A program made the translations under genes and the position numbers. Of a stretch of DNA of 64,000 nucleotides, positions 26,358 to 64,000 are shown in pieces. The notes below the pieces were generated by a model, which made no database searches, had not been told where the DNA came from, and saw only the letters and a program-made list of their open reading frames with translations. The stretch is from assembly GCF_000027125.1 (NCBI RefSeq), contig NC_017626.1; one strand, given 5' to 3'. Origin of the DNA: Escherichia coli 042 (lineage in GTDB: Bacteria > Pseudomonadota > Gammaproteobacteria > Enterobacterales > Enterobacteriaceae). Every line of letters begins with the position of its first letter. The stretch's first letter is position 1.

Positions 26358-26388
26358 GCCGGGTTTAAGCCCGGCATTATTTTTATCC
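26358..26388 (+). terminator. Hairpin plus T-tract, plus-strand orientation (possible native srmB terminator displaced by the IS)
   Basis: gccgggtttaagcccggc followed by attatttttat; shares a 16-nt core with the hairpin at 24748-24763. Confidence 0.5.
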
Positions 26389-27264
26389 CGGCAAAAAACA
26401 CTCTTCAACACACTGAATAAAAGTGTGCATCGCCGGGCTAACCGCTTTTCCAGCATGGTGTGCGCACATGGCCGTAATGGTCTGCGACTGTTCGCCAAAA
26501 GGCAATTCAATTAATTCTCCGCTCTCAAGCTCTTTTTCCACCGCAAAGCGGGGCAAGTAACTGACCCCGATATTCGCCGCGACACAACGCTTGATGCTTT
26601 CGATACTTATAAGCTCAATGGTGTTTTCCACCGTGATCCGCCGCTGTCGCAGCGTGCTCTCAAATATCTGCCGGAAGACACATTGCGGTTCGTTGATAAT
26701 AAAGCTACAGGCGTTATGTCTTCCCGGCTCAGTAAAATCGACATCTGCAATTTGTGGTGAAGCCACCAGCACCAGCGATTGTTCACCCAACTCCCGTCGG
26801 TTCAAAGCATCATCATTTCCTACGCGATAAAAGACGCCAACATCGGCCTCATCATTCAGTAGTGCATCACGGATCACGTAACAGTTCAGCGACTGCAACG
26901 ATAAACGCACTTTTGGTGCGCGTTGCCGAAAACGCTGCAACACCTCCGGCATTCGGTAAGAGAGCAACGTTTCGCCCGAAACAACGCGTAGTTCCCCGTC
27001 CGGATCCGACTCTTTTTTGGCAGCCTCACGAAGCGTATCCATCACTCGGGTAAGTTCATAGATGTGCGGCAGCAGCTTTTTTCCTTCGCGAGTGAGGCAC
27101 ATCCGTCGACCAATTTTCTCAAACAACTGTACCGAGAACTCCTGTTCAAGCTGCTGAATATGAAAAGTCACCGTCGATTGTGTACAGCACAATTTTTGCG
27201 AAGCTCGCAAAAAGGAACCCTCTTCCACCACGGTTTTAAGCGTAATAAAACGGCGCAGATCCAT
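26383..27264 (-). CDS. yfiE: LysR-family transcriptional regulator YfiE
   Basis: ORF 26383..27309; start trimmed to MDLRRFITLKTVVEEGSF (293 aa). Confidence 0.88.
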   Translation of the reverse strand: MDLRRFITLKTVVEEGSFLRASQKLCCTQSTVTFHIQQLEQEFSVQLFEKIGRRMCLTREGKKLLPHIYELTRVMDTLREAAKKESDPDGELRVVSGETLLSYRMPEVLQRFRQRAPKVRLSLQSLNCYVIRDALLNDEADVGVFYRVGNDDALNRRELGEQSLVLVASPQIADVDFTEPGRHNACSFIINEPQCVFRQIFESTLRQRRITVENTIELISIESIKRCVAANIGVSYLPRFAVEKELESGELIELPFGEQSQTITAMCAHHAGKAVSPAMHTFIQCVEECFLPG

Positions 27265-27366
27265 AACTCCAAACCTATCAAAAATATCGAATTCAGAATG
27301 TAAAAACATTCATTTTTTTAAATGTTCCGTGTCGGGTACTGTCTACCAAAACAGAGGAGATAACAA

Positions 27367-27954
27367 GTGACACCGACCCTTTTAAGTGCTTTTTGGACTT
27401 ACACCCTGATTACCGCCATGACGCCAGGACCGAACAATATTCTCGCCCTTAGCTCAGCCACATCGCACGGATTTCGTCAGAGTACCCGCGTGCTGGCAGG
27501 GATGAGTCTGGGATTTTTAATCGTCATGTTGCTGTGTGCGGGAATTTCGTTTTCACTGGCTGTTATCGACCCGGCAGCAGTGCATCTGTTGAGTTGGGCA
27601 GGAGCGGCATACATTGTCTGGCTGGCGTGGAAAATCGCTACCAGTCCAACAAAGGAAGACGGACTTCAGGCAAAACCAATCAGCTTTTGGGCCAGCTTTG
27701 CTTTGCAGTTTGTGAACGTCAAAATCATTTTGTATGGCGTTACGGCACTGTCGACGTTTGTCCTGCCGCAAACGCAGGCGCTAAGCTGGGTAGTTGGCGT
27801 CAGCGTTTTGCTGGCGATGATTGGGACGTTTGGCAATGTGTGCTGGGCGCTGGCGGGGCATCTGTTTCAGCGATTGTTTCGCCAGTATGGTCGCCAGTTA
27901 AATATCGTGCTTGCCCTGTTGCTGGTCTATTGCGCGGTACGCATTTTCTATTAA
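27367..27954 (+). CDS. eamB: Cysteine / O-acetylserine exporter EamB (LysE family)
   Basis: 195-aa multi-pass membrane ORF (MTPTLLSAFWTYTLITAMTPGPNN). Confidence 0.9.
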   Translation: MTPTLLSAFWTYTLITAMTPGPNNILALSSATSHGFRQSTRVLAGMSLGFLIVMLLCAGISFSLAVIDPAAVHLLSWAGAAYIVWLAWKIATSPTKEDGLQAKPISFWASFALQFVNVKIILYGVTALSTFVLPQTQALSWVVGVSVLLAMIGTFGNVCWALAGHLFQRLFRQYGRQLNIVLALLLVYCAVRIFY

Positions 27955-55527: not shown

Positions 55528-56010
55528 ATGATAAAGCACCTGGTAGCACCCCTGATTTTCACCTCGCTAGTACTGACTGGCTGCCAGTCCCCTCAGGGAA
55601 AGTTTACTCCTGAGCAAGTTGCCGCTATGCAATCTTATGGATTTACTGAATCCGCCGGCGACTGGTCGCTGGGATTATCAGATGCCATTCTGTTCGCAAA
55701 AAATGACTACAAATTGCTCCCGGAAAGCCAGCAACAGATCCAAACCATGGCAGCCAAATTGGCCTCGACAGGGCTAACGCATGCCCGTATGGATGGACAC
55801 ACCGACAACTATGGTGAAGACAGTTACAACGAAGCCTTATCATTGAAACGGGCGAATGTCGTGGCCGATGCCTGGGCTATGGGTGGACAAATTCCGCGCA
55901 GCAATCTCACCACACAGGGTTTAGGAAAAAAATATCCCATAGCCAGTAACAAGACCGCCCAGGGCCGCGCCGAGAACCGCCGCGTCGCAGTGGTGATTAC
56001 TACCCCTTAA
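55528..56010 (+). CDS. yfiB: OmpA-family outer-membrane lipoprotein YfiB
   Basis: 160-aa ORF with lipobox LTGCQS and OmpA-like C-domain (NRRVAV). Confidence 0.9.
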   Translation: MIKHLVAPLIFTSLVLTGCQSPQGKFTPEQVAAMQSYGFTESAGDWSLGLSDAILFAKNDYKLLPESQQQIQTMAAKLASTGLTHARMDGHTDNYGEDSYNEALSLKRANVVADAWAMGGQIPRSNLTTQGLGKKYPIASNKTAQGRAENRRVAVVITTP

Positions 56011-56086
56011 AACACGAACAAACAGATAAAAAAAGGGCCAGCCAATTGGCCAGCCCTTCTTAACAGGATGTCGCTTAAGCGAAACC

Positions 56087-56437
<351 letters not shown>

Positions 56438-56475
56438 TTAATCTCTTATCCTGGGTAAACTGATATCTCGGGGGC

Positions 56476-57243
56476 TTACGCCATCCCATCATGTTTATGT
56501 TGCTGTTGTGCGTGTTCCGTTTTGAACTCCGCCAGCAACCTTGCTTGCTCTTCAGTCAGAGCCAGGTTTTCCAGAAGTTCAGGTCTTCTAAGCCAGGTAC
56601 GGCCCAGCGACTGTTTCAAACGCCAGCGACGTATCTCGGCATGGTTGCCCGACAGTAACACTGACGGAACTTCCATCCCTTCTAACACCTCAGGCCGCGT
56701 ATAGTGCGGGCAATCCAGCAATCCTTCAGCAAAGGAATCTTCCGTTGCCGAAGCTTCATGTCCCAGTACTCCCGGAATAAACCGGGAAACGGAGTCAATC
56801 AGCGTCATTGCTGGTAACTCACCACCACTGAGAACGTAATCGCCGATTGACCATTCTTCGTCAATTTCGGTTTGGATCACGCGCTCATCTATACCTTCGT
56901 AGCGACCGCACACCAGAATCAATTTTTGATTCGTTGCCAGTTCACTGACGCCCGCTTGATCAAGCTTGCGTCCCTGTGGTGAAAGATAAATCACCTTTGC
57001 GCCTTCACCCGCCGCGGCTTTTGCTGCATGAATGGCGTCCCGCAAGGGTTGCACCATCATTAACATCCCCGGTCCGCCGCCGTAAGGACGATCGTCCACA
57101 GTACGGTGCCGGTCATGCGTGAAGTCGCGAGGACTCCAGCTCTGGATGCTCAGCAGGCCATTTTTAACTGCCCGGCCAGTTACCCCGTAATCGGTAATTG
57201 CGCGGAACATTTCAGGAAACAGGCTAATTATGCCAATCCACAT
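56476..57243 (-). CDS. trmD: tRNA (guanine37-N1)-methyltransferase
   Basis: 255-aa ORF recognised as TrmD. Confidence 0.96.
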
Positions 57244-57273
57244 AGCGCCGTCTTTTACCGTTTATCCGGTGGT

Positions 57274-57822
57274 TTAAAAACCAGGATCCCAATCTACTTC
57301 GATTGAACGAGTAGTGAGATCGACTTTCTTGATAACCTGCCCATCGAGGAACGGTACGAGACGTTCCTTGATACCAAACGCATCTTTCAGGTTTGCCTTA
57401 ATGACGAGAACGTCATTAGATCCGGTTTCCATCATATCGACGACTTTACCGAGATCGTAGCCTTCAGTGGTTACTACCTGGCAGCCCATCAGGTCTTTCC
57501 AGTAGTAGTCACCCTCTTCAAGCTGAGGCAGCTGCGATGAATCCACGACAATTTCACAATTCGTCAGCAGGTTCGCCGCATCACGATCGTCAACGCCTTT
57601 CAGCTTGATGATCATGTCCTGATTGTGGTGCTTCCAGCTTTCCAGCTGGACTTGCTGCCACTGACCCGCCTTCTGGATAAACCAGGGCTGATAGTCAAAA
57701 ATGCTTTCGGCGTCTTCGGTGGAAGAAAACACTCTGAGCCACCCACGAATACCGTAAGACGAACCCATTTTTCCCAAAACGATGGGATCAACAGGTGCTT
57801 GCGCGGTGAGTTGTTTGCTCAT
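57274..57822 (-). CDS. rimM: Ribosome maturation factor RimM
   Basis: ORF 57274..57831; start trimmed to [13 protein letters not shown] (182 aa). Confidence 0.93.
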
Positions 57823-57840
57823 CATGACCACCGTGACAGA

Positions 57841-58167
<327 letters not shown>

Positions 58168-58225
58168 TTACTGATTTCTGGAGAAAATGCAATCAGCAGT
58201 TAATAACTCTGTCGCATAAGGTCAT

Positions 58226-59587
58226 TTAGCGACCAGGAAATCCCGGCGGCATCATACCCTTCATGCTTCTCATCATCTTCGCCATTCCGCCCTTCTTCAT
58301 TTTCTTCATCATGCGCTGCATGTCGTCGAACTGCTTCAGAAGGCGGTTAACGTCCTGTACCTGCATCCCGCAACCGGCGGCGATACGACGCTTACGCGAA
58401 CCTTTGATGATTTCTGGCTTAGCGCGCTCTTTCATCGTCATCGAGTTGATGATGGCTTCCATACGCACCAGCACTTTATCGTCCATCTGCGACTTGACGT
58501 TATCCGGGATCTGCCCCATGCCCGGCAGCTTGCCCATCAGGCTAGCCATGCCGCCCATATTTTTCATCTGGCGCAGCTGCTCAAGAAAGTCGTTGAGATC
58601 GAAGCCGTCGCCTTTTTTCAGCTTGCTGGCTAATTTCTCTGCCTGCGCGCGGTCAACTTTGCTTTCGATATCTTCGATCAGTGACAGTACGTCGCCCATG
58701 CCGAGAATACGCGACGCGATGCGGTCCGGATGGAACGGCTCCAGCGCCTCAGTTTTCTCGCCAACACCGAGGAACTTGATCGGTTTGCCAGTGATGTGAC
58801 GAATAGAGAGCGCCGCACCACCGCGGGCATCGCCGTCCACTTTGGTCAAGACTACACCGGTAAGCGGTAACGCTTCATTGAATGCTTTTGCCGTATTGGC
58901 CGCATCCTGACCGGTCATGGCGTCAACCACAAACAGGGTTTCAACCGGATTAATCGACGCATGGACTTGTTTGATCTCATCCATCATCGCTTCGTCAACG
59001 TGCAGACGACCAGCGGTATCCACCAGCAGCACGTCGTAGAATTTCAGTTTGGCTTCTTTCAGCGCCGCGTTAACGATATCTACCGGCTTCTGACCAACAT
59101 CAGAAGGGAAGAAATCAACGCCCACCTGCTCTGCCAGCGTCTCAAGCTGTTTGATTGCCGCCGGGCGATAAACGTCGGCGGAAACCACCAGCACTTTCTT
59201 CTTGTGCTTCTCGCGCAGGAACTTACCGAGTTTACCAACGCTGGTTGTTTTACCGGCACCTTGCAGGCCCGCCATCAGCACGACCGCAGGCGGTTGCGCA
59301 GCCAGGTTCAGGGTCTGGTTCTCTTCGCCCATCGCCGCAACCAGTTCGTTACGGACGATTTTGACGAACTCCTGCCCCGGCGTCAGGCTCTTATTAACTT
59401 CATGACCAACCGCTTTCTCTTTTACGCGATTGATAAACTCACGCACTACCGGCAGAGCGACGTCCGCCTCCAGCAGCGCCATGCGCACTTCGCGCAGCGT
59501 ATCTTTTACGTTGTCTTCAGTGAGGCGTCCACGGCCACTGATATTGCGCAGCGTGCGCGACAAACGATCGGTTAAATTATCAAACAT
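58226..59587 (-). CDS. ffh: Signal recognition particle protein Ffh
   Basis: 453-aa ORF with NG-domain GTPase motifs and Met-rich M-domain. Confidence 0.96.
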   Translation of the reverse strand: MFDNLTDRLSRTLRNISGRGRLTEDNVKDTLREVRMALLEADVALPVVREFINRVKEKAVGHEVNKSLTPGQEFVKIVRNELVAAMGEENQTLNLAAQPPAVVLMAGLQGAGKTTSVGKLGKFLREKHKKKVLVVSADVYRPAAIKQLETLAEQVGVDFFPSDVGQKPVDIVNAALKEAKLKFYDVLLVDTAGRLHVDEAMMDEIKQVHASINPVETLFVVDAMTGQDAANTAKAFNEALPLTGVVLTKVDGDARGGAALSIRHITGKPIKFLGVGEKTEALEPFHPDRIASRILGMGDVLSLIEDIESKVDRAQAEKLASKLKKGDGFDLNDFLEQLRQMKNMGGMASLMGKLPGMGQIPDNVKSQMDDKVLVRMEAIINSMTMKERAKPEIIKGSRKRRIAAGCGMQVQDVNRLLKQFDDMQRMMKKMKKGGMAKMMRSMKGMMPPGFPGR

Positions 59588-59753
59588 TGTCTCTCGCCTG
59601 GGGTGGAAACGGTTGGCCGCAATCGCGACACATCATCAGTATTTTGCCGCAGTATAACATGAAGGCGTCTTTGTTGTTATGCAACGGTTGGAGCTGCGTT
59701 CACCTAACGCTATACTGCTTCTCTTTCTTATTGCTCAAACTGTCGACCTTACT

Positions 59754-60545
59754 ATGCCCGTTTTTGCTCTGCTCGCGCTTGTCGCCTACTCCGTCAGTCT
59801 TGCGCTGATTGTTCCCGGTCTGCTGCAAAAAAACGGCGGCTGGCGGCGCATGGCTATTATTTCTGCGGTCATCGCGCTGGTCTGCCACGCAATCGCTCTG
59901 GAAGCCCGCATCCTGCCCGACGGTGATAGCGGACAAAACCTCAGCCTGCTGAATGTTGGTTCATTGGTCAGTTTGATGATCTGTACGGTAATGACCATTG
60001 TAGCTTCTCGCAATCGTGGCTGGTTGCTGCTACCCATTGTCTATGCCTTTGCGCTTATCAACCTGGCGCTGGCGACCTTCATGCCCAATGAATACATCAC
60101 CCATCTGGAAGCTACGCCTGGGATGCTGGTGCACATTGGCTTATCGCTCTTTTCCTATGCCACGCTGATTATCGCCGCCCTGTACGCGCTGCAACTGGCG
60201 TGGATTGATTACCAACTGAAGAACAAGAAGCTGGCGTTTAACCAGGAAATGCCGCCATTGATGAGTATCGAGCGTAAAATGTTCCACATCACACAGATTG
60301 GCGTGGTGCTGCTAACGCTCACTCTTTGCACTGGCCTGTTCTACATGCACAACTTATTTAGCATGGAAAATATCGACAAGGCCGTGCTCTCTATCGTGGC
60401 GTGGTTTGTCTATATTGTGCTGCTGTGGGGACATTATCATGAAGGATGGCGTGGACGCCGCGTCGTCTGGTTTAACGTTGCGGGTGCAGTCATTCTGACA
60501 CTGGCCTACTTCGGCAGCCGAATTGTCCAGCAGTTAATCAGCTAA
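59754..60545 (+). CDS. ypjD: Inner-membrane protein YpjD (cytochrome c assembly family)
   Basis: ORF 59679..60545; start trimmed to MPVFALLALVAYS (263 aa); multi-pass membrane protein. Confidence 0.8.
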   Translation: MPVFALLALVAYSVSLALIVPGLLQKNGGWRRMAIISAVIALVCHAIALEARILPDGDSGQNLSLLNVGSLVSLMICTVMTIVASRNRGWLLLPIVYAFALINLALATFMPNEYITHLEATPGMLVHIGLSLFSYATLIIAALYALQLAWIDYQLKNKKLAFNQEMPPLMSIERKMFHITQIGVVLLTLTLCTGLFYMHNLFSMENIDKAVLSIVAWFVYIVLLWGHYHEGWRGRRVVWFNVAGAVILTLAYFGSRIVQQLIS

Positions 60546-60589
60546 ACCCAGAAAAGGAGTTTCCCCTGGAACACATTTCTACTACTACG

Positions 60590-61852
60590 TTGATCATTAT
60601 TCTGATCATCATGGTGGTCATTTCAGCCTATTTTTCCGGGTCCGAAACCGGAATGATGACTCTCAACCGCTATCGTCTGCGACATATGGCGAAACAGGGT
60701 AATCGCTCGGCCAAACGCGTCGAAAAATTGCTGCGTAAGCCAGACCGCCTGATTAGCCTGGTGTTAATCGGCAATAACCTGGTCAATATTCTTGCCTCCG
60801 CGCTCGGCACTATTGTTGGGATGCGTTTGTACGGCGATGCGGGCGTGGCAATTGCGACTGGTGTGCTGACTTTTGTCGTACTGGTTTTTGCTGAGGTATT
60901 GCCGAAAACCATTGCCGCGCTGTACCCGGAAAAAGTCGCTTATCCGAGTAGTTTTCTGCTGGCTCCGCTGCAAATTTTGATGATGCCGCTGGTCTGGTTG
61001 CTGAACGCTATTACCCGCATGTTAATGCGCATGATGGGCATCAAAACCGATATCGTGGTCAGCGGCTCTTTGAGCAAAGAAGAGTTGCGCACTATCGTGC
61101 ATGAATCGCGCTCACAAATTTCCCGTCGCAATCAGGATATGCTGCTGTCGGTGCTCGATCTGGAAAAAATGACCGTTGATGACATCATGGTGCCGCGCAG
61201 TGAAATTATCGGTATTGATATCAACGATGACTGGAAATCGATTCTGCGCCAACTCTCCCACTCACCTCACGGGCGCATCGTGCTCTACCGTGATTCGCTG
61301 GACGACGCCATCAGTATGCTGCGAGTACGTGAAGCCTGGCGGTTGATGTCGGAGAAAAAAGAGTTCACCAAAGAAACCATGCTGCGCGCCGCGGACGAGA
61401 TCTATTTTGTGCCTGAAGGTACGCCGCTCAGCACGCAGTTGGTAAAGTTTCAGCGCAACAAAAAGAAAGTCGGCCTGGTCGTCAACGAATACGGAGACAT
61501 TCAGGGGCTGGTGACGGTTGAAGATATTCTGGAAGAGATTGTCGGCGATTTCACTACCTCGATGTCGCCAACACTTGCCGAAGAGGTCACGCCGCAAAAC
61601 GACGGTTCAGTGATTATTGATGGCACCGCCAACGTGCGGGAAATCAACAAAGCCTTTAACTGGCATCTACCGGAAGATGATGCCCGCACTGTTAATGGCG
61701 TCATTCTTGAGGCACTGGAAGAGATCCCGGTCGCGGGCACCCGTGTACGTATTGGCGAGTACGACATCGACATTCTCGACGTACAGGACAATATGATTAA
61801 GCAGGTAAAAGTTTTTCCTGTGAAACCGCTGCGCGAGAGTGTGGCGGAGTAA
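60590..61852 (+). CDS. yfjD: CNNM/CorC-family membrane protein YfjD (DUF21-CBS-CorC_HlyC)
   Basis: 420-aa ORF as in the track (TTG start); an upstream in-frame CTG at 60566 with an AAGGAG RBS would add 8 aa. Confidence 0.82.
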   Translation: MIIILIIMVVISAYFSGSETGMMTLNRYRLRHMAKQGNRSAKRVEKLLRKPDRLISLVLIGNNLVNILASALGTIVGMRLYGDAGVAIATGVLTFVVLVFAEVLPKTIAALYPEKVAYPSSFLLAPLQILMMPLVWLLNAITRMLMRMMGIKTDIVVSGSLSKEELRTIVHESRSQISRRNQDMLLSVLDLEKMTVDDIMVPRSEIIGIDINDDWKSILRQLSHSPHGRIVLYRDSLDDAISMLRVREAWRLMSEKKEFTKETMLRAADEIYFVPEGTPLSTQLVKFQRNKKKVGLVVNEYGDIQGLVTVEDILEEIVGDFTTSMSPTLAEEVTPQNDGSVIIDGTANVREINKAFNWHLPEDDARTVNGVILEALEEIPVAGTRVRIGEYDIDILDVQDNMIKQVKVFPVKPLRESVAE

Positions 61853-61859
61853 CGAAAAC

Positions 61860-61883
61860 GGCCCTGCATTCGCATGCAGGGCC
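61860..61883. terminator. Bidirectional terminator between convergent yfjD and grpE
   Basis: Perfect cggccctgcat-tcg-catgcagggccg hairpin. Confidence 0.75.
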
Positions 61884-61906
61884 GTGAATTATTACGAAAA
61901 CAGAAA

Positions 61907-62524
<618 letters not shown>

Positions 62525-62544
62525 TCATCTCGCTAACTTCGCTT

Positions 62545-62573
62545 ATTATGGGGATCAGTTTCAGGGTTTCAAG
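62545..62573 (-). promoter_or_regulatory. Sigma-32 heat-shock promoter of grpE
   Basis: Minus strand CTTGAAA, 13-nt spacer, CCCCATAAT. Confidence 0.8.
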
Positions 62574-62621
62574 GGAAGCACTCACATTGTCATCAATCTT
62601 CGCAACAAGGACCTCGGAAAA

Positions 62622-63500
62622 ATGAATAATCATTTCAAGTGTATTGGCATTGTGGGACACCCACGTCACCCCACTGCACTGACAACACATGAAATGCTCT
62701 ACCGCTGGCTGTGCACAAAAGGTTACGAGGTCATCGTTGAGCAACAAATCGCTCACGAACTGCAACTGAAGAATGTGAAAACCGGCACACTCGCGGAGAT
62801 TGGGCAACTGGCTGATCTCGCAGTAGTCGTTGGTGGCGACGGTAATATGTTGGGCGCGGCGCGCACGCTCGCGCGCTACGATATTAAAGTCATCGGCATC
62901 AACCGTGGCAACCTGGGTTTCCTGACTGACCTTGACCCCGATAACGCCCAGCAACAATTAGCCGATGTGCTGGAAGGTCACTACATCAGCGAGAAACGTT
63001 TTTTGCTGGAAGCGCAAGTCTGTCAGCAAGATTGCCAGAAACGCATCAGCACGGCGATTAACGAAGTGGTACTTCATCCTGGCAAAGTGGCGCATATGAT
63101 TGAGTTCGAAGTGTATATCGACGAGATCTTTGCGTTTTCTCAGCGTTCCGATGGACTGATTATTTCGACGCCAACTGGCTCCACCGCTTATTCCCTCTCT
63201 GCGGGCGGTCCTATTCTGACACCCTCTCTGGATGCGATTACCCTGGTGCCCATGTTCCCGCATACGTTGTCAGCACGACCACTGGTCATAAACAGCAGCA
63301 GCACGATCCGTCTGCGTTTTTCGCATCGCCGTAACGACCTGGAAATCAGTTGCGACAGCCAGATAGCACTGCCGATTCAGGAAGGTGAAGATGTCCTGAT
63401 TCGTCGCTGTGATTACCATCTGAATCTGATTCATCCGAAAGATTACAGTTATTTCAATACATTAAGCACCAAGCTCGGCTGGTCAAAAAAATTATTCTAA
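62622..63500 (+). CDS. nadK: NAD kinase
   Basis: ORF 62445..63500; start trimmed to [14 protein letters not shown] (292 aa); GGDGN motif. Confidence 0.95.
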
Positions 63501-63517
63501 TTTTACGCCAGCCTCTT

Positions 63518-63559
63518 TACTGTATATAAAACCAGTTTATACTGTACACAATAACAGTA
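63518..63559. promoter_or_regulatory. Tandem LexA (SOS) boxes upstream of recN
   Basis: TACTGTATATAAAACCAGTT (63518-63537) and TACTGTACACAATAACAGTA (63540-63559), both CTG-N10-CAG. Confidence 0.8.
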
Positions 63560-63585
63560 TTGGTTTTTCATACAGGAAAACAACT

Positions 63586-64000
63586 ATGTTGGCACAACTG
63601 ACCATCAGCAACTTTGCTATCGTTCGTGAGCTTGAGATTGATTTTCATAGCGGCATGACCGTAATAACTGGCGAGACCGGCGCGGGTAAATCTATTGCAA
63701 TAGATGCCCTCGGCCTTTGTCTCGGTGGTCGCGCTGAAGCCGACATGGTGCGTAATGGCGCTACTCGCGCTGACCTGTGCGCCCGTTTTTCACTGAAAGA
63801 TACGCCAGCGGCTCTGCGCTGGCTGGAAGAAAACCAGCTTGAAGACGGTCATGAATGTTTGCTTCGTCGCGTAATCAGTAGCGATGGTCGCTCACGAGGT
63901 TTTATCAACGGTACAGCGGTTCCTCTGTCACAACTGCGCGAACTGGGTCAGTTGCTGATTCAGATCCATGGTCAGCACGCTCATCAGTTACTCACCAAAC
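63586..64000 (+). CDS. recN: DNA repair protein RecN (5' portion; continues beyond the window)
   Basis: Hand translation from ATG 63586: [37 protein letters not shown].. (Walker A). Not in ORF track because no stop falls in the window. Confidence 0.9.

What the first reader, a model, noticed from the sequence alone, without database searches (positions are those of the whole stretch)
63518..63559. Two adjacent consensus LexA boxes ahead of recN
TACTGTATATAAAACCAGTT and TACTGTACACAATAACAGTA sit 2 bp apart, 25-70 bp upstream of the recN ATG, consistent with the tight multi-operator SOS repression known for recN. A third, weaker box may lie around 63555-63575 (aacagtattggtttttcataca) but has a poor CAG half.
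Basis: partly seen in the sequence, partly recalled or inferred. Interest (0 to 1): 0.25.

Follow-up and report, generated by a model that had tools for sequence, protein, structure and literature searches.

The report
Known LexA operators of recN promoter
These are the textbook binding sites through which the LexA repressor keeps the E. coli DNA-repair gene recN switched off until DNA is damaged; the finding is correct but ordinary, and the "possible" third site is also a known one.

Summary
TACTGTATATAAAACCAGTT (63518-63537) and TACTGTACACAATAACAGTA (63540-63559) lie 2 bp apart, 48 and 26 nt before the recN ATG (63586). A LexA matrix was built from 16 published E. coli boxes, with recN left out. 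It ranks these two boxes first and second of all 20-mers in the 64-kb window. Third is TATTGGTTTTTCATACAGGA (63558-63577), the known third recN box.

The boxes overlap the promoter. The -35 TTTACT and the -10 TATACT each share TACT with a box's left arm. The published K-12 start site maps to 63549/63550, inside box 2. Boxes 1 and 2 keep a 22-bp spacing in 104 of 105 scorable recN upstream regions from Enterobacterales. The 46-nt promoter segment is exact in 5379 of 5426 complete E. coli genomes.

The only local peculiarity is a natural A-to-T polymorphism at 63560 in box 3. It is absent from those 5426 genomes but present in two draft assemblies.

This is the already-described LexA repression of recN. 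Interest is low.

The parts
62622..63500 (+). nadK (NAD kinase) coding sequence, the upstream neighbour; its stop is at 63498-63500
   Evidence: ORF ending at 63500. The RefSeq nadK CDS of 879 nt ends at the equivalent position in matching E. coli records.
63516..63521 (+). -35 hexamer TTTACT of the recN promoter; its last 4 nt (TACT) are the first 4 nt of box 1
   Evidence: This is the only sigma-70-like site found in 63300-64000. CTTTACTG is present upstream of recN in 114 of 119 loci.
63518..63537 (.). LexA box 1, TACTGTATATAAAACCAGTT; covers the -35 hexamer and the promoter spacer (about -31 to -12)
   Evidence: Rank 1 of all 20-mers in the window, 25.6-27.5 bits. Listed as the recN LexA motif in PMC3009722. 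Scores at least 12 bits in 115 of 117 orthologous upstream regions.
63538..63543 (+). -10 hexamer TATACT, 16-bp spacer after the -35; its last 4 nt are the first 4 nt of box 2
   Evidence: Promoter scan. TATACTGT is near-invariant in 114 aligned loci. It lies 6-7 nt upstream of the mapped start site.
63540..63559 (.). LexA box 2, TACTGTACACAATAACAGTA; covers the -10 hexamer and the transcription start (about -9 to +11)
   Evidence: Rank 2 in the window, 17.7-21.5 bits. Centre-to-centre distance to box 1 is 22 bp in 104 of 105 loci.
63549..63550 (+). recN transcription start, transferred from K-12 (1-nt uncertainty from the coordinate convention)
   Evidence: SMRT-Cappable-seq lists b2616 with a TSS at 2751758 forward (PMC6131387 suppl. 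file 4). The MG1655 recN ATG is at 2751795 and corresponds to window 63586.
63558..63577 (.). LexA box 3, TATTGGTTTTTCATACAGGA (weak; the K-12 form is TAATGG...); shares TA with box 2 and covers the 5' UTR and the Shine-Dalgarno (about +10 to +29)
   Evidence: Rank 3 in the window, 15.0-16.5 bits. It ends 8 nt before the ATG, the same geometry (8, 26, 48) as the three Salmonella recN boxes in Table 1 of PMC8072944. That paper calls it a known box that FIMO misses.
63560..63560 (+). Natural A-to-T polymorphism at position 3 of box 3
   Evidence: The alignment to five E. coli genomes shows A in all of them. The 31-mer with T is found in 0 of 5426 genomes and the A form in 5376. The T form is present in GCA_026221415.1 and GCA_036600215.1.
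63574..63577 (+). Shine-Dalgarno AGGA, 8 nt before the ATG, inside box 3
   Evidence: Read directly from the sequence. ACAGG is conserved in 114 of 117 loci.
63586..64000 (+). recN coding sequence, first 138 codons (runs off the window end)
   Evidence: NCBIfam NF008121 RecN equivalog, residues 1-138 aligned to profile positions 1-138, E = 1.6e-86. RefSeq annotation of the matching records agrees.

Best explanation
The 60 bp at 63518-63577 are the LexA operator array of the recN promoter.

In undamaged cells, LexA dimers occupy box 1 (over the -35 hexamer and spacer) and box 2 (over the -10 hexamer and the start site). A third dimer binds more weakly at box 3, over the early transcribed region and ribosome-binding site. 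Together they exclude RNA polymerase and keep recN almost silent.

DNA damage activates RecA, LexA cleaves itself, the sites empty, and recN is strongly transcribed from a start at 63549/63550.

The positions, the motif quality, the promoter overlap and the conservation are shown here. LexA occupancy and induction are shown by others for the identical K-12 sequence. The contribution of box 3, and any cooperativity between dimers, are inferred.
For: - **Motif quality.** The three boxes are ranks 1-3 of all 20-mers in the 64-kb window, using a matrix trained without recN.
- **Promoter overlap.** The -35 TTTACT and -10 TATACT each overlap a box's left arm by 4 nt. The 22-bp box period therefore equals the hexamer plus the 16-bp spacer.
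- **Start site.** The K-12 TSS at 2751758 maps to 63549/63550, inside box 2.
- **Unbiased conservation.** 119 recN upstream regions were selected by coding sequence alone. Box 1 scores at least 12 bits in 115 of 117. Box 2 does so in 53 of 54 Enterobacteriaceae and 14 of 14 Yersiniaceae. Spacing is 22 bp in 104 of 105.
- **Right arms are conserved too.** The right arm of box 1 (CCAGT) lies in the promoter spacer, where sigma-70 imposes no sequence, yet it is about 90% or more conserved.
- **Species-level invariance.** The 46-nt promoter with boxes 1 and 2 is exact in 5379 of 5426 E. coli genomes.
- **Literature on the identical K-12 sequence.**
  - Box 1 was recovered by MEME upstream of UV-induced genes (PMC3009722).
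  - recN has 36-fold lexA dependence (PMC11228462).
  - A LexA repressor footprint is seen at recNp in a mutagenesis reporter screen (bioRxiv 10.1101/2025.05.13.653802).
  - recN-lacZ is de-repressed in a lexA deletion strain (PMC6015884).
  - recN has 'three SOS boxes' (PMC10714372).
Against: - There are no binding or expression data for this particular strain.
- Box 3 breaks the 'invariant' CTG-N10-CAG core. It reads TTG here and ATG in K-12 (core quoted in PMC11228462).
- Box 3 is missed by FIMO (PMC8072944).
- Box 3 scores below 12 bits in 48 of 54 Enterobacteriaceae.
- Box 3 is split by an inserted repeat in Cedecea without loss of boxes 1 and 2.
- The whole box 3 segment is conserved, T-rich spacer included, so conservation does not single out LexA contacts.
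- At the lexA promoter, a second operator had a negligible effect on regulation (PMC7440846). 'More boxes means tighter repression' is therefore plausible but not proven for recN.
- Read-through transcripts from the nadK promoter reach recN. These start upstream of the boxes.
Confidence: 0.93

Rival explanations
1. Only boxes 1 and 2 are functional operators. On this view the box 3 segment is conserved because it is the recN 5' UTR and ribosome-binding region, and its resemblance to a LexA box is residual or incidental.
For: The whole segment is conserved, including the T-rich spacer and the AGGA Shine-Dalgarno, not just the LexA-contact triplets. The CTG half is ATG, TTG or GTG in most loci. 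Scores are below 12 bits in 48 of 54 Enterobacteriaceae. An ERIC-like insertion removes its left half in three Cedecea loci. FIMO does not detect it.
Against: It is the third-best LexA match in 64 kb. TG at box positions 4-5 sits in exact LexA register with the CAG in 112-113 of 117 loci. It becomes a full CTGT-N8-ACAG box in Erwiniaceae, exactly where box 2's right arm has decayed. The dinG operator listed in PMC3009722 has the same TATTGG left arm. The 5' UTR shows no significant RNA structure that would otherwise explain the conservation (z = -0.70). The literature counts it as a box.
Confidence: 0.3
2. DnaA co-represses recN through a DnaA box that overlaps a LexA box, so the array is a dual LexA/DnaA operator.
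For: PMC6015884 reports a DnaA box overlapping a LexA box in the recN promoter. It also reports 2- to 3-fold higher recN-lacZ in a dnaA(A345S) mutant, additive with lexA deletion. One-mismatch DnaA-box matches lie at 63521-63529 (- strand, TTATATACA) and 63564-63572 (+ strand, TTTTTCATA).
Against: One-mismatch DnaA-box matches are at about chance frequency in the window (129 found, 109 expected). There is no exact match in the promoter. The effect reported is small, and no direct binding to recN DNA is described in the section read.
Confidence: 0.15
3. The boxes are a chance by-product of an AT-rich promoter and have no repressor function.
For: The intergenic region is 68% A+T. The left arms of boxes 1 and 2 double as the promoter hexamers.
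Against: Box 1 is expected 8e-5 times per window and box 2 0.03 times. The non-promoter right arms are conserved across Enterobacterales. LexA-dependent expression is documented.
Confidence: 0.01

Closest known systems
E. coli K-12 recN promoter and operators (Rostas et al. 1987, Nucleic Acids Res 15:5041; site list of Fernandez de Henestrosa et al. 2000). Both are cited from reference lists and memory; neither full text is held in the library.
   Same: Same gene and same neighbours (nadK upstream). Boxes 1 and 2, the -35 and -10 hexamers and the spacing are identical base for base. There are three boxes, ending 48, 26 and 8 nt before the ATG.
   Different: There are two single-base differences in the 85-bp intergenic region. 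One is A-to-T at 63560, position 3 of box 3 (TAATGG becomes TATTGG). The other is G-to-A at 63582, between the Shine-Dalgarno and the ATG.
Salmonella enterica recN: three SOS boxes at 8, 26 and 48 bp from the ATG (PMC8072944, Table 1)
   Same: Identical geometry, with a weak third box. The published heterology index is 12.97 for Salmonella box 3. My recomputed values are 11.1 for the window's box 3 and 12.2 for the K-12 form.
   Different: The box sequences differ in their spacers. In Salmonella, box 2 is the stronger of the first two (heterology index 7.72 against 8.82). In E. coli, box 1 is the stronger.
The lexA gene's own double operator, and the overlapping double operators of colicin genes (cited in PMC7440846)
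   Same: These are multi-operator SOS promoters in which adjacent LexA dimers cover the core promoter.
   Different: recN has three sites rather than two. Its 22-bp period is locked to the -35/-10 hexamers, and its third site lies downstream of the start over the ribosome-binding site. That colicin boxes overlap more extensively is my recollection and was not tested here.
dinG LexA operator TATTGGCTGTTTATACAGTA (listed in PMC3009722, Table 4)
   Same: Its left arm is TATTGG with an intact ACAG right arm. This is exactly the arm composition of the window's box 3.
   Different: The spacer sequence differs. dinG has a single operator, whereas this is the third site of an array.

Membership tests
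Gammaproteobacterial LexA operator (SOS box) | 20-bp imperfect palindrome resembling TACTG(TA)5CAGTA, with the core CTG-N10-CAG | tested here: met
   Box 1 has CTG...CAG and matches the consensus at 16 of 20 positions. Box 2 has CTG...CAG, matches at 15 of 20, and has both arms perfect. They score 25.6 and 17.7 bits, ranks 1 and 2 in the window.
Gammaproteobacterial LexA operator (SOS box), applied to box 3 | Core CTG-N10-CAG | tested here: not met
   Box 3 reads TTG-N10-CAG (ATG in K-12), so the strict core is broken. It is still rank 3 in the window (15.0 bits) and resembles the dinG operator arm. I file it as a weak or degenerate operator, not a canonical one.
Gammaproteobacterial LexA operator (SOS box) | Position overlapping or adjacent to the promoter of the regulated gene | tested here: met
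   The -35 and -10 hexamers overlap boxes 1 and 2. The published K-12 start site maps inside box 2.
Gammaproteobacterial LexA operator (SOS box) | Conservation upstream of orthologous genes | tested here: met
   In 119 loci chosen by recN coding sequence only, box 1 scores at least 12 bits in 115 of 117. Box 2 does so in 86 of 117 overall and in 67 of 68 Enterobacteriaceae plus Yersiniaceae. Spacing is fixed at 22 bp.
Gammaproteobacterial LexA operator (SOS box) | Physical binding by LexA (footprint, EMSA or ChIP) | not testable with these tools
   Only literature on the identical K-12 sequence is available. A LexA repressor footprint at recNp is reported in bioRxiv 10.1101/2025.05.13.653802. 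Rostas et al. 1987 is cited for LexA regulation but its text is not held.
SOS regulon gene | Induction by DNA damage that depends on LexA cleavage | not testable with these tools
   Literature for K-12: recN is 19-fold induced by AZT with 36-fold lexA dependence (PMC11228462), is UV-induced (PMC3009722), and is de-repressed in a lexA deletion strain (PMC6015884).
recN (SMC-like DNA repair ATPase) as the regulated gene | The downstream ORF is a RecN orthologue starting at the stated ATG | tested here: met
   NF008121 RecN equivalog, residues 1-138 aligned to profile positions 1-138, E = 1.6e-86. The score is below the full-length cut-off only because the window ends. RefSeq calls recN at the same start.

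The most novel reading that the evidence does not exclude
The third operator may be an evolutionarily tunable element. This E. coli lineage carries a rare A-to-T change at 63560. It raises the box 3 score by 2.3 bits and gives the box the TATTGG arm of the proven dinG operator, which might lower basal recN expression or delay its induction. Across Enterobacterales, box 2 and box 3 appear to trade strength. In Erwiniaceae the right arm of box 2 has decayed while box 3 is a full CTGT-N8-ACAG (Spearman -0.40, not corrected for phylogeny). That would suggest selection on total LexA occupancy downstream of the -10 rather than on any one site.
Probability: 0.25. Interest if true: 0.2.

Novelty: already known. 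Interest (0 to 1): 0.08.

Why it matters
It matters little beyond correct annotation. The finding re-identifies one of the best-known SOS promoters. Its practical value is as a positive control: a reader working from raw sequence located real operators, and a simple matrix recovers all three recN boxes as the top three hits in 64 kb. The comparative data add a small point of design logic. Each promoter hexamer is embedded in the left arm of a LexA box, which explains why the 22-bp spacing is invariant. The data also show that the weak third box varies between lineages.

Tried and rejected
- **Primary paper.** Rostas et al. 1987 (PMC305946) is not held, so the primary footprint evidence is cited second-hand.
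- **Start-site sources.** Thomason et al. 2015 is not held. The stored Cappable-seq supplements (PMC4782308) contain no entry for the region. The start site came from the SMRT-Cappable-seq supplement instead.
- **Loose core pattern.** CTGT-N8-ACAG with one mismatch is not enriched in the window (27 found, 19 expected), so I rejected it as a test and used a full 20-nt matrix.
- **RNA structure.** I folded the 5' UTR (63550-63610) to see whether structure explains box 3 conservation. It does not (z = -0.70).
- **DnaA boxes.** One-mismatch DnaA-box matches inside boxes 1 and 3 occur at chance frequency, so the sequence neither supports nor excludes the published DnaA proposal.
- **The T at 63560 as an error or artefact.** I rejected this because two independent draft assemblies carry the identical promoter.
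- **Shigella as the source.** I suspected this from the 98.9% best identity. The exact GrpE protein is annotated as E. coli in public records.

Full report
**1. What is in the sequence**

The last 1.5 kb of the window reads grpE (- strand), nadK (+ strand, stop at 63500), an 85-bp intergenic region, and then an ORF that runs off the window from an ATG at 63586.

- Megablast against 5,426 complete E. coli genomes finds the 401-nt region once per genome. RefSeq annotates nadK and recN with exactly these boundaries.
- The 138 codons present align to positions 1-138 of the RecN equivalog NF008121, E = 1.6e-86.
They end 48 and 26 nt before the ATG.

**2. Is it more than chance?**

I built a LexA matrix from 16 E. 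coli boxes printed in Table 4 of PMC3009722. The recN entry was left out so that the test is not circular.

| Site | Coordinates | Score (symmetric matrix) | Expected per window | Rank |
|---|---|---|---|---|
| Box 1 | 63518-63537 | 25.6 bits | 8e-5 | 1 |
| Box 2 | 63540-63559 | 17.7 bits | 0.03 | 2 |
| Box 3 | 63558-63577 | 15.0 bits | 0.13 | 3 |

- All 63,981 positions were scored on both strands, and the next hit scores 12.3-12.5 bits.
- Re-computed heterology indices are 4.1, 9.2 and 11.1, or 12.2 for the K-12 form of box 3. They rank the boxes in the order I recall from the published K-12 list. The index of 3.5 printed for recN's best box in PMC11228462 also agrees.
- The minimal core with one mismatch allowed is not enriched. 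It is the full-length match that counts.

**3. The third box**

- The matrix places it at 63558-63577 (TATTGGTTTTTCATACAGGA), sharing its first two bases with the end of box 2.
- In this register the CAG half (63573-63575) is intact, and the CTG half is the defective one (TTG).
- It ends 8 nt before the ATG, so the three boxes sit at 48, 26 and 8 nt. This is exactly the geometry tabulated for Salmonella recN in PMC8072944. [quoted passage not shown] **4. Relation to the promoter**

- The only sigma-70-like site in 63300-64000 is TTTACT (63516-63521), a 16-bp spacer, and TATACT (63538-63543).
- Each hexamer shares its last four bases (TACT) with the left arm of a LexA box. The 22-bp centre-to-centre distance of boxes 1 and 2 is therefore the same as the hexamer-plus-spacer period.
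- SMRT-Cappable-seq lists the recN (b2616) start at MG1655 coordinate 2751758 (supplementary file 4 of PMC6131387). The MG1655 recN ATG is at 2751795, so the start maps to window 63549, or 63550 if the table is zero-based. That is 6-7 nt after the -10 and inside box 2.
- Relative to that start, box 1 spans about -31 to -12, box 2 about -9 to +11, and box 3 about +10 to +29. Box 3 includes the AGGA Shine-Dalgarno (63574-63577).
- The same table lists nadK-recN read-through transcripts starting at 2750765. I found no terminator-like site between nadK and the promoter. For those transcripts LexA could act only as a roadblock, which is an inference.

**5. Comparative evidence**

To avoid selecting on the boxes themselves, I scanned one genome per species for a degenerate back-translation of the first 13 RecN codons. 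It returned Enterobacterales plus two Aeromonas and one Plesiomonas, and 119 loci had enough upstream sequence.

Boxes 1 and 2:
- Box 1 scores at least 12 bits in 115 of 117 scorable loci.
- Box 2 does so in 53 of 54 Enterobacteriaceae and 14 of 14 Yersiniaceae.
- The two centres are 22 bp apart in 104 of 105 cases.
- CTTTACTG...CCAGTTTATACTGT is close to invariant.
- The right arm of box 1 lies in the promoter spacer, where RNA polymerase imposes no sequence. Its conservation is the part that specifically argues for repressor binding.
- Loci that at first seemed to lack the boxes (Cedecea, Budvicia) have them further upstream. In three Cedecea loci a 57-122-bp repeat that I recognise as ERIC-like is inserted between box 2 and the CATACAGGA remnant.
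- Within E. coli, the 46 nt covering the promoter and boxes 1-2 are exact in 5,379 of 5,426 genomes.

Box 3:
- The site keeps the LexA register in nearly all loci. TG at box positions 4-5 occurs in 112-113 of 117, when aligned on the CAG.
- Position 3 varies: A in 68 loci, C in 29, T in 12, G in 8.
- It reaches 12 bits in only 6 of 54 Enterobacteriaceae but in 16 of 32 Erwiniaceae. There it is a full CTGT-N8-ACAG, while box 2's right arm has decayed to CCAT.
- Box 2 and box 3 scores are negatively correlated (Spearman -0.40). This figure is not corrected for shared ancestry and should be read as a lead only.
- The whole box 3 segment is conserved, including its T-rich spacer and the Shine-Dalgarno, so conservation alone cannot separate LexA binding from a translation-initiation constraint.
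- The 5' UTR shows no significant RNA structure.

**6. What is particular to this window**

- The intergenic region differs from K-12 at two bases: 63560 (A to T, position 3 of box 3) and 63582 (G to A).
- The T at 63560 is found in none of the 5,426 complete genomes, tested with a 31-mer centred on it. The control with the A form finds 5,376.
- It is not an error. Two draft assemblies, located through the window's exact GrpE protein, carry an identical promoter. That GrpE is annotated as E. coli in public records.
- The window as a whole is from a lineage poorly represented among complete genomes, with a best identity of 98.9% over 8 kb.
- The change raises the box 3 score by 2.3 bits and reproduces the TATTGG arm of the dinG operator. 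Whether that changes LexA affinity is untested.

**7. Mechanism**

The best-supported account is the standard one.

- LexA dimers on boxes 1 and 2 occlude the -35, the -10 and the start site. A weaker third site extends coverage over the initial transcribed region.
- RecA-stimulated LexA self-cleavage frees the promoter.
- Published work on the identical K-12 sequence shows:
  - UV induction (PMC3009722);
  - 19-fold AZT induction with 36-fold lexA dependence (PMC11228462);
  - de-repression in a lexA deletion strain (PMC6015884);
  - a LexA repressor footprint at recNp in a mutagenesis reporter screen (bioRxiv 10.1101/2025.05.13.653802);
  - 'middle' induction timing (PMC5999292).
- The idea that three operators give especially tight repression is plausible, and PMC10714372 says recN expression is 'strictly limited'. 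But it is inferred. At the lexA promoter a second operator had a negligible effect (PMC7440846).
- A proposal that DnaA co-represses recN through a box overlapping a LexA box (PMC6015884) cannot be judged from sequence. The only DnaA-like 9-mers have one mismatch, and such matches occur at chance frequency.

**8. Verdict**

- This is the known recN operator array, so novelty is 'already known' and interest is low.
- The only mildly new points are the rare box 3 polymorphism and the lineage-dependent balance between boxes 2 and 3.

Noticed in passing
window 27337-27356: TACTGTCTACCAAAACAGAG is the fourth-best LexA-matrix hit in the window (12.5 bits) and has a perfect CTGT-N8-ACAG core. It lies in the divergent intergenic region between a LysR-family regulator (26383-27309, - strand) and the cysteine/O-acetylserine exporter eamB (27367-27954, + strand; NF007653). 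It is more likely a LysR-type dyad than a LexA site.
   Followed up: partly
L053, L089, L095 (Cedecea), recN upstream regions: A 57-122-bp repeat that looks like an ERIC element is inserted in the recN 5' UTR, between box 2 and the CATACAGGA/Shine-Dalgarno remnant of box 3. Boxes 1 and 2 are intact but lie 83-171 nt from the ATG.
   Followed up: partly
Erwiniaceae loci, e.g. L023, L027, L037, L075, L091: The right arm of box 2 has decayed (TACTGTATGAAAAACCATAT), while the third site is a full box (ATCTGTTTTTTCATACAGGT). Box 2 and box 3 scores are negatively correlated across 117 loci (Spearman -0.40, not phylogeny-corrected).
   Followed up: partly
window 63500-63586, and MG1655 2750765: There is no terminator-like site between the nadK stop and the recN promoter. 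A published long-read data set lists nadK-recN read-through transcripts that start upstream of all three LexA boxes (PMC6131387 supplement).
   Followed up: no
window 56000-64000: This 8 kb is only 98.9% identical to the nearest of 5,426 complete E. coli genomes. The window therefore comes from an E. coli lineage that is under-represented among complete assemblies. Its GrpE protein is identical to entries annotated as E. coli, including CBG35646.1.
   Followed up: partly
window 63582: There is a second intergenic difference from K-12: G to A, 4 nt before the recN ATG, between the Shine-Dalgarno and the start codon. It is shared with E. coli strain 7/2.
   Followed up: no
L014, L024 (Rosenbergiella): Box 1 is degenerate here (TACTCAGTAAAAAAGAGGTT, with both the CTG and the CAG lost), while box 2 is near-consensus (25.5 and 23.8 bits). 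This is the reverse of the usual hierarchy.
   Followed up: no
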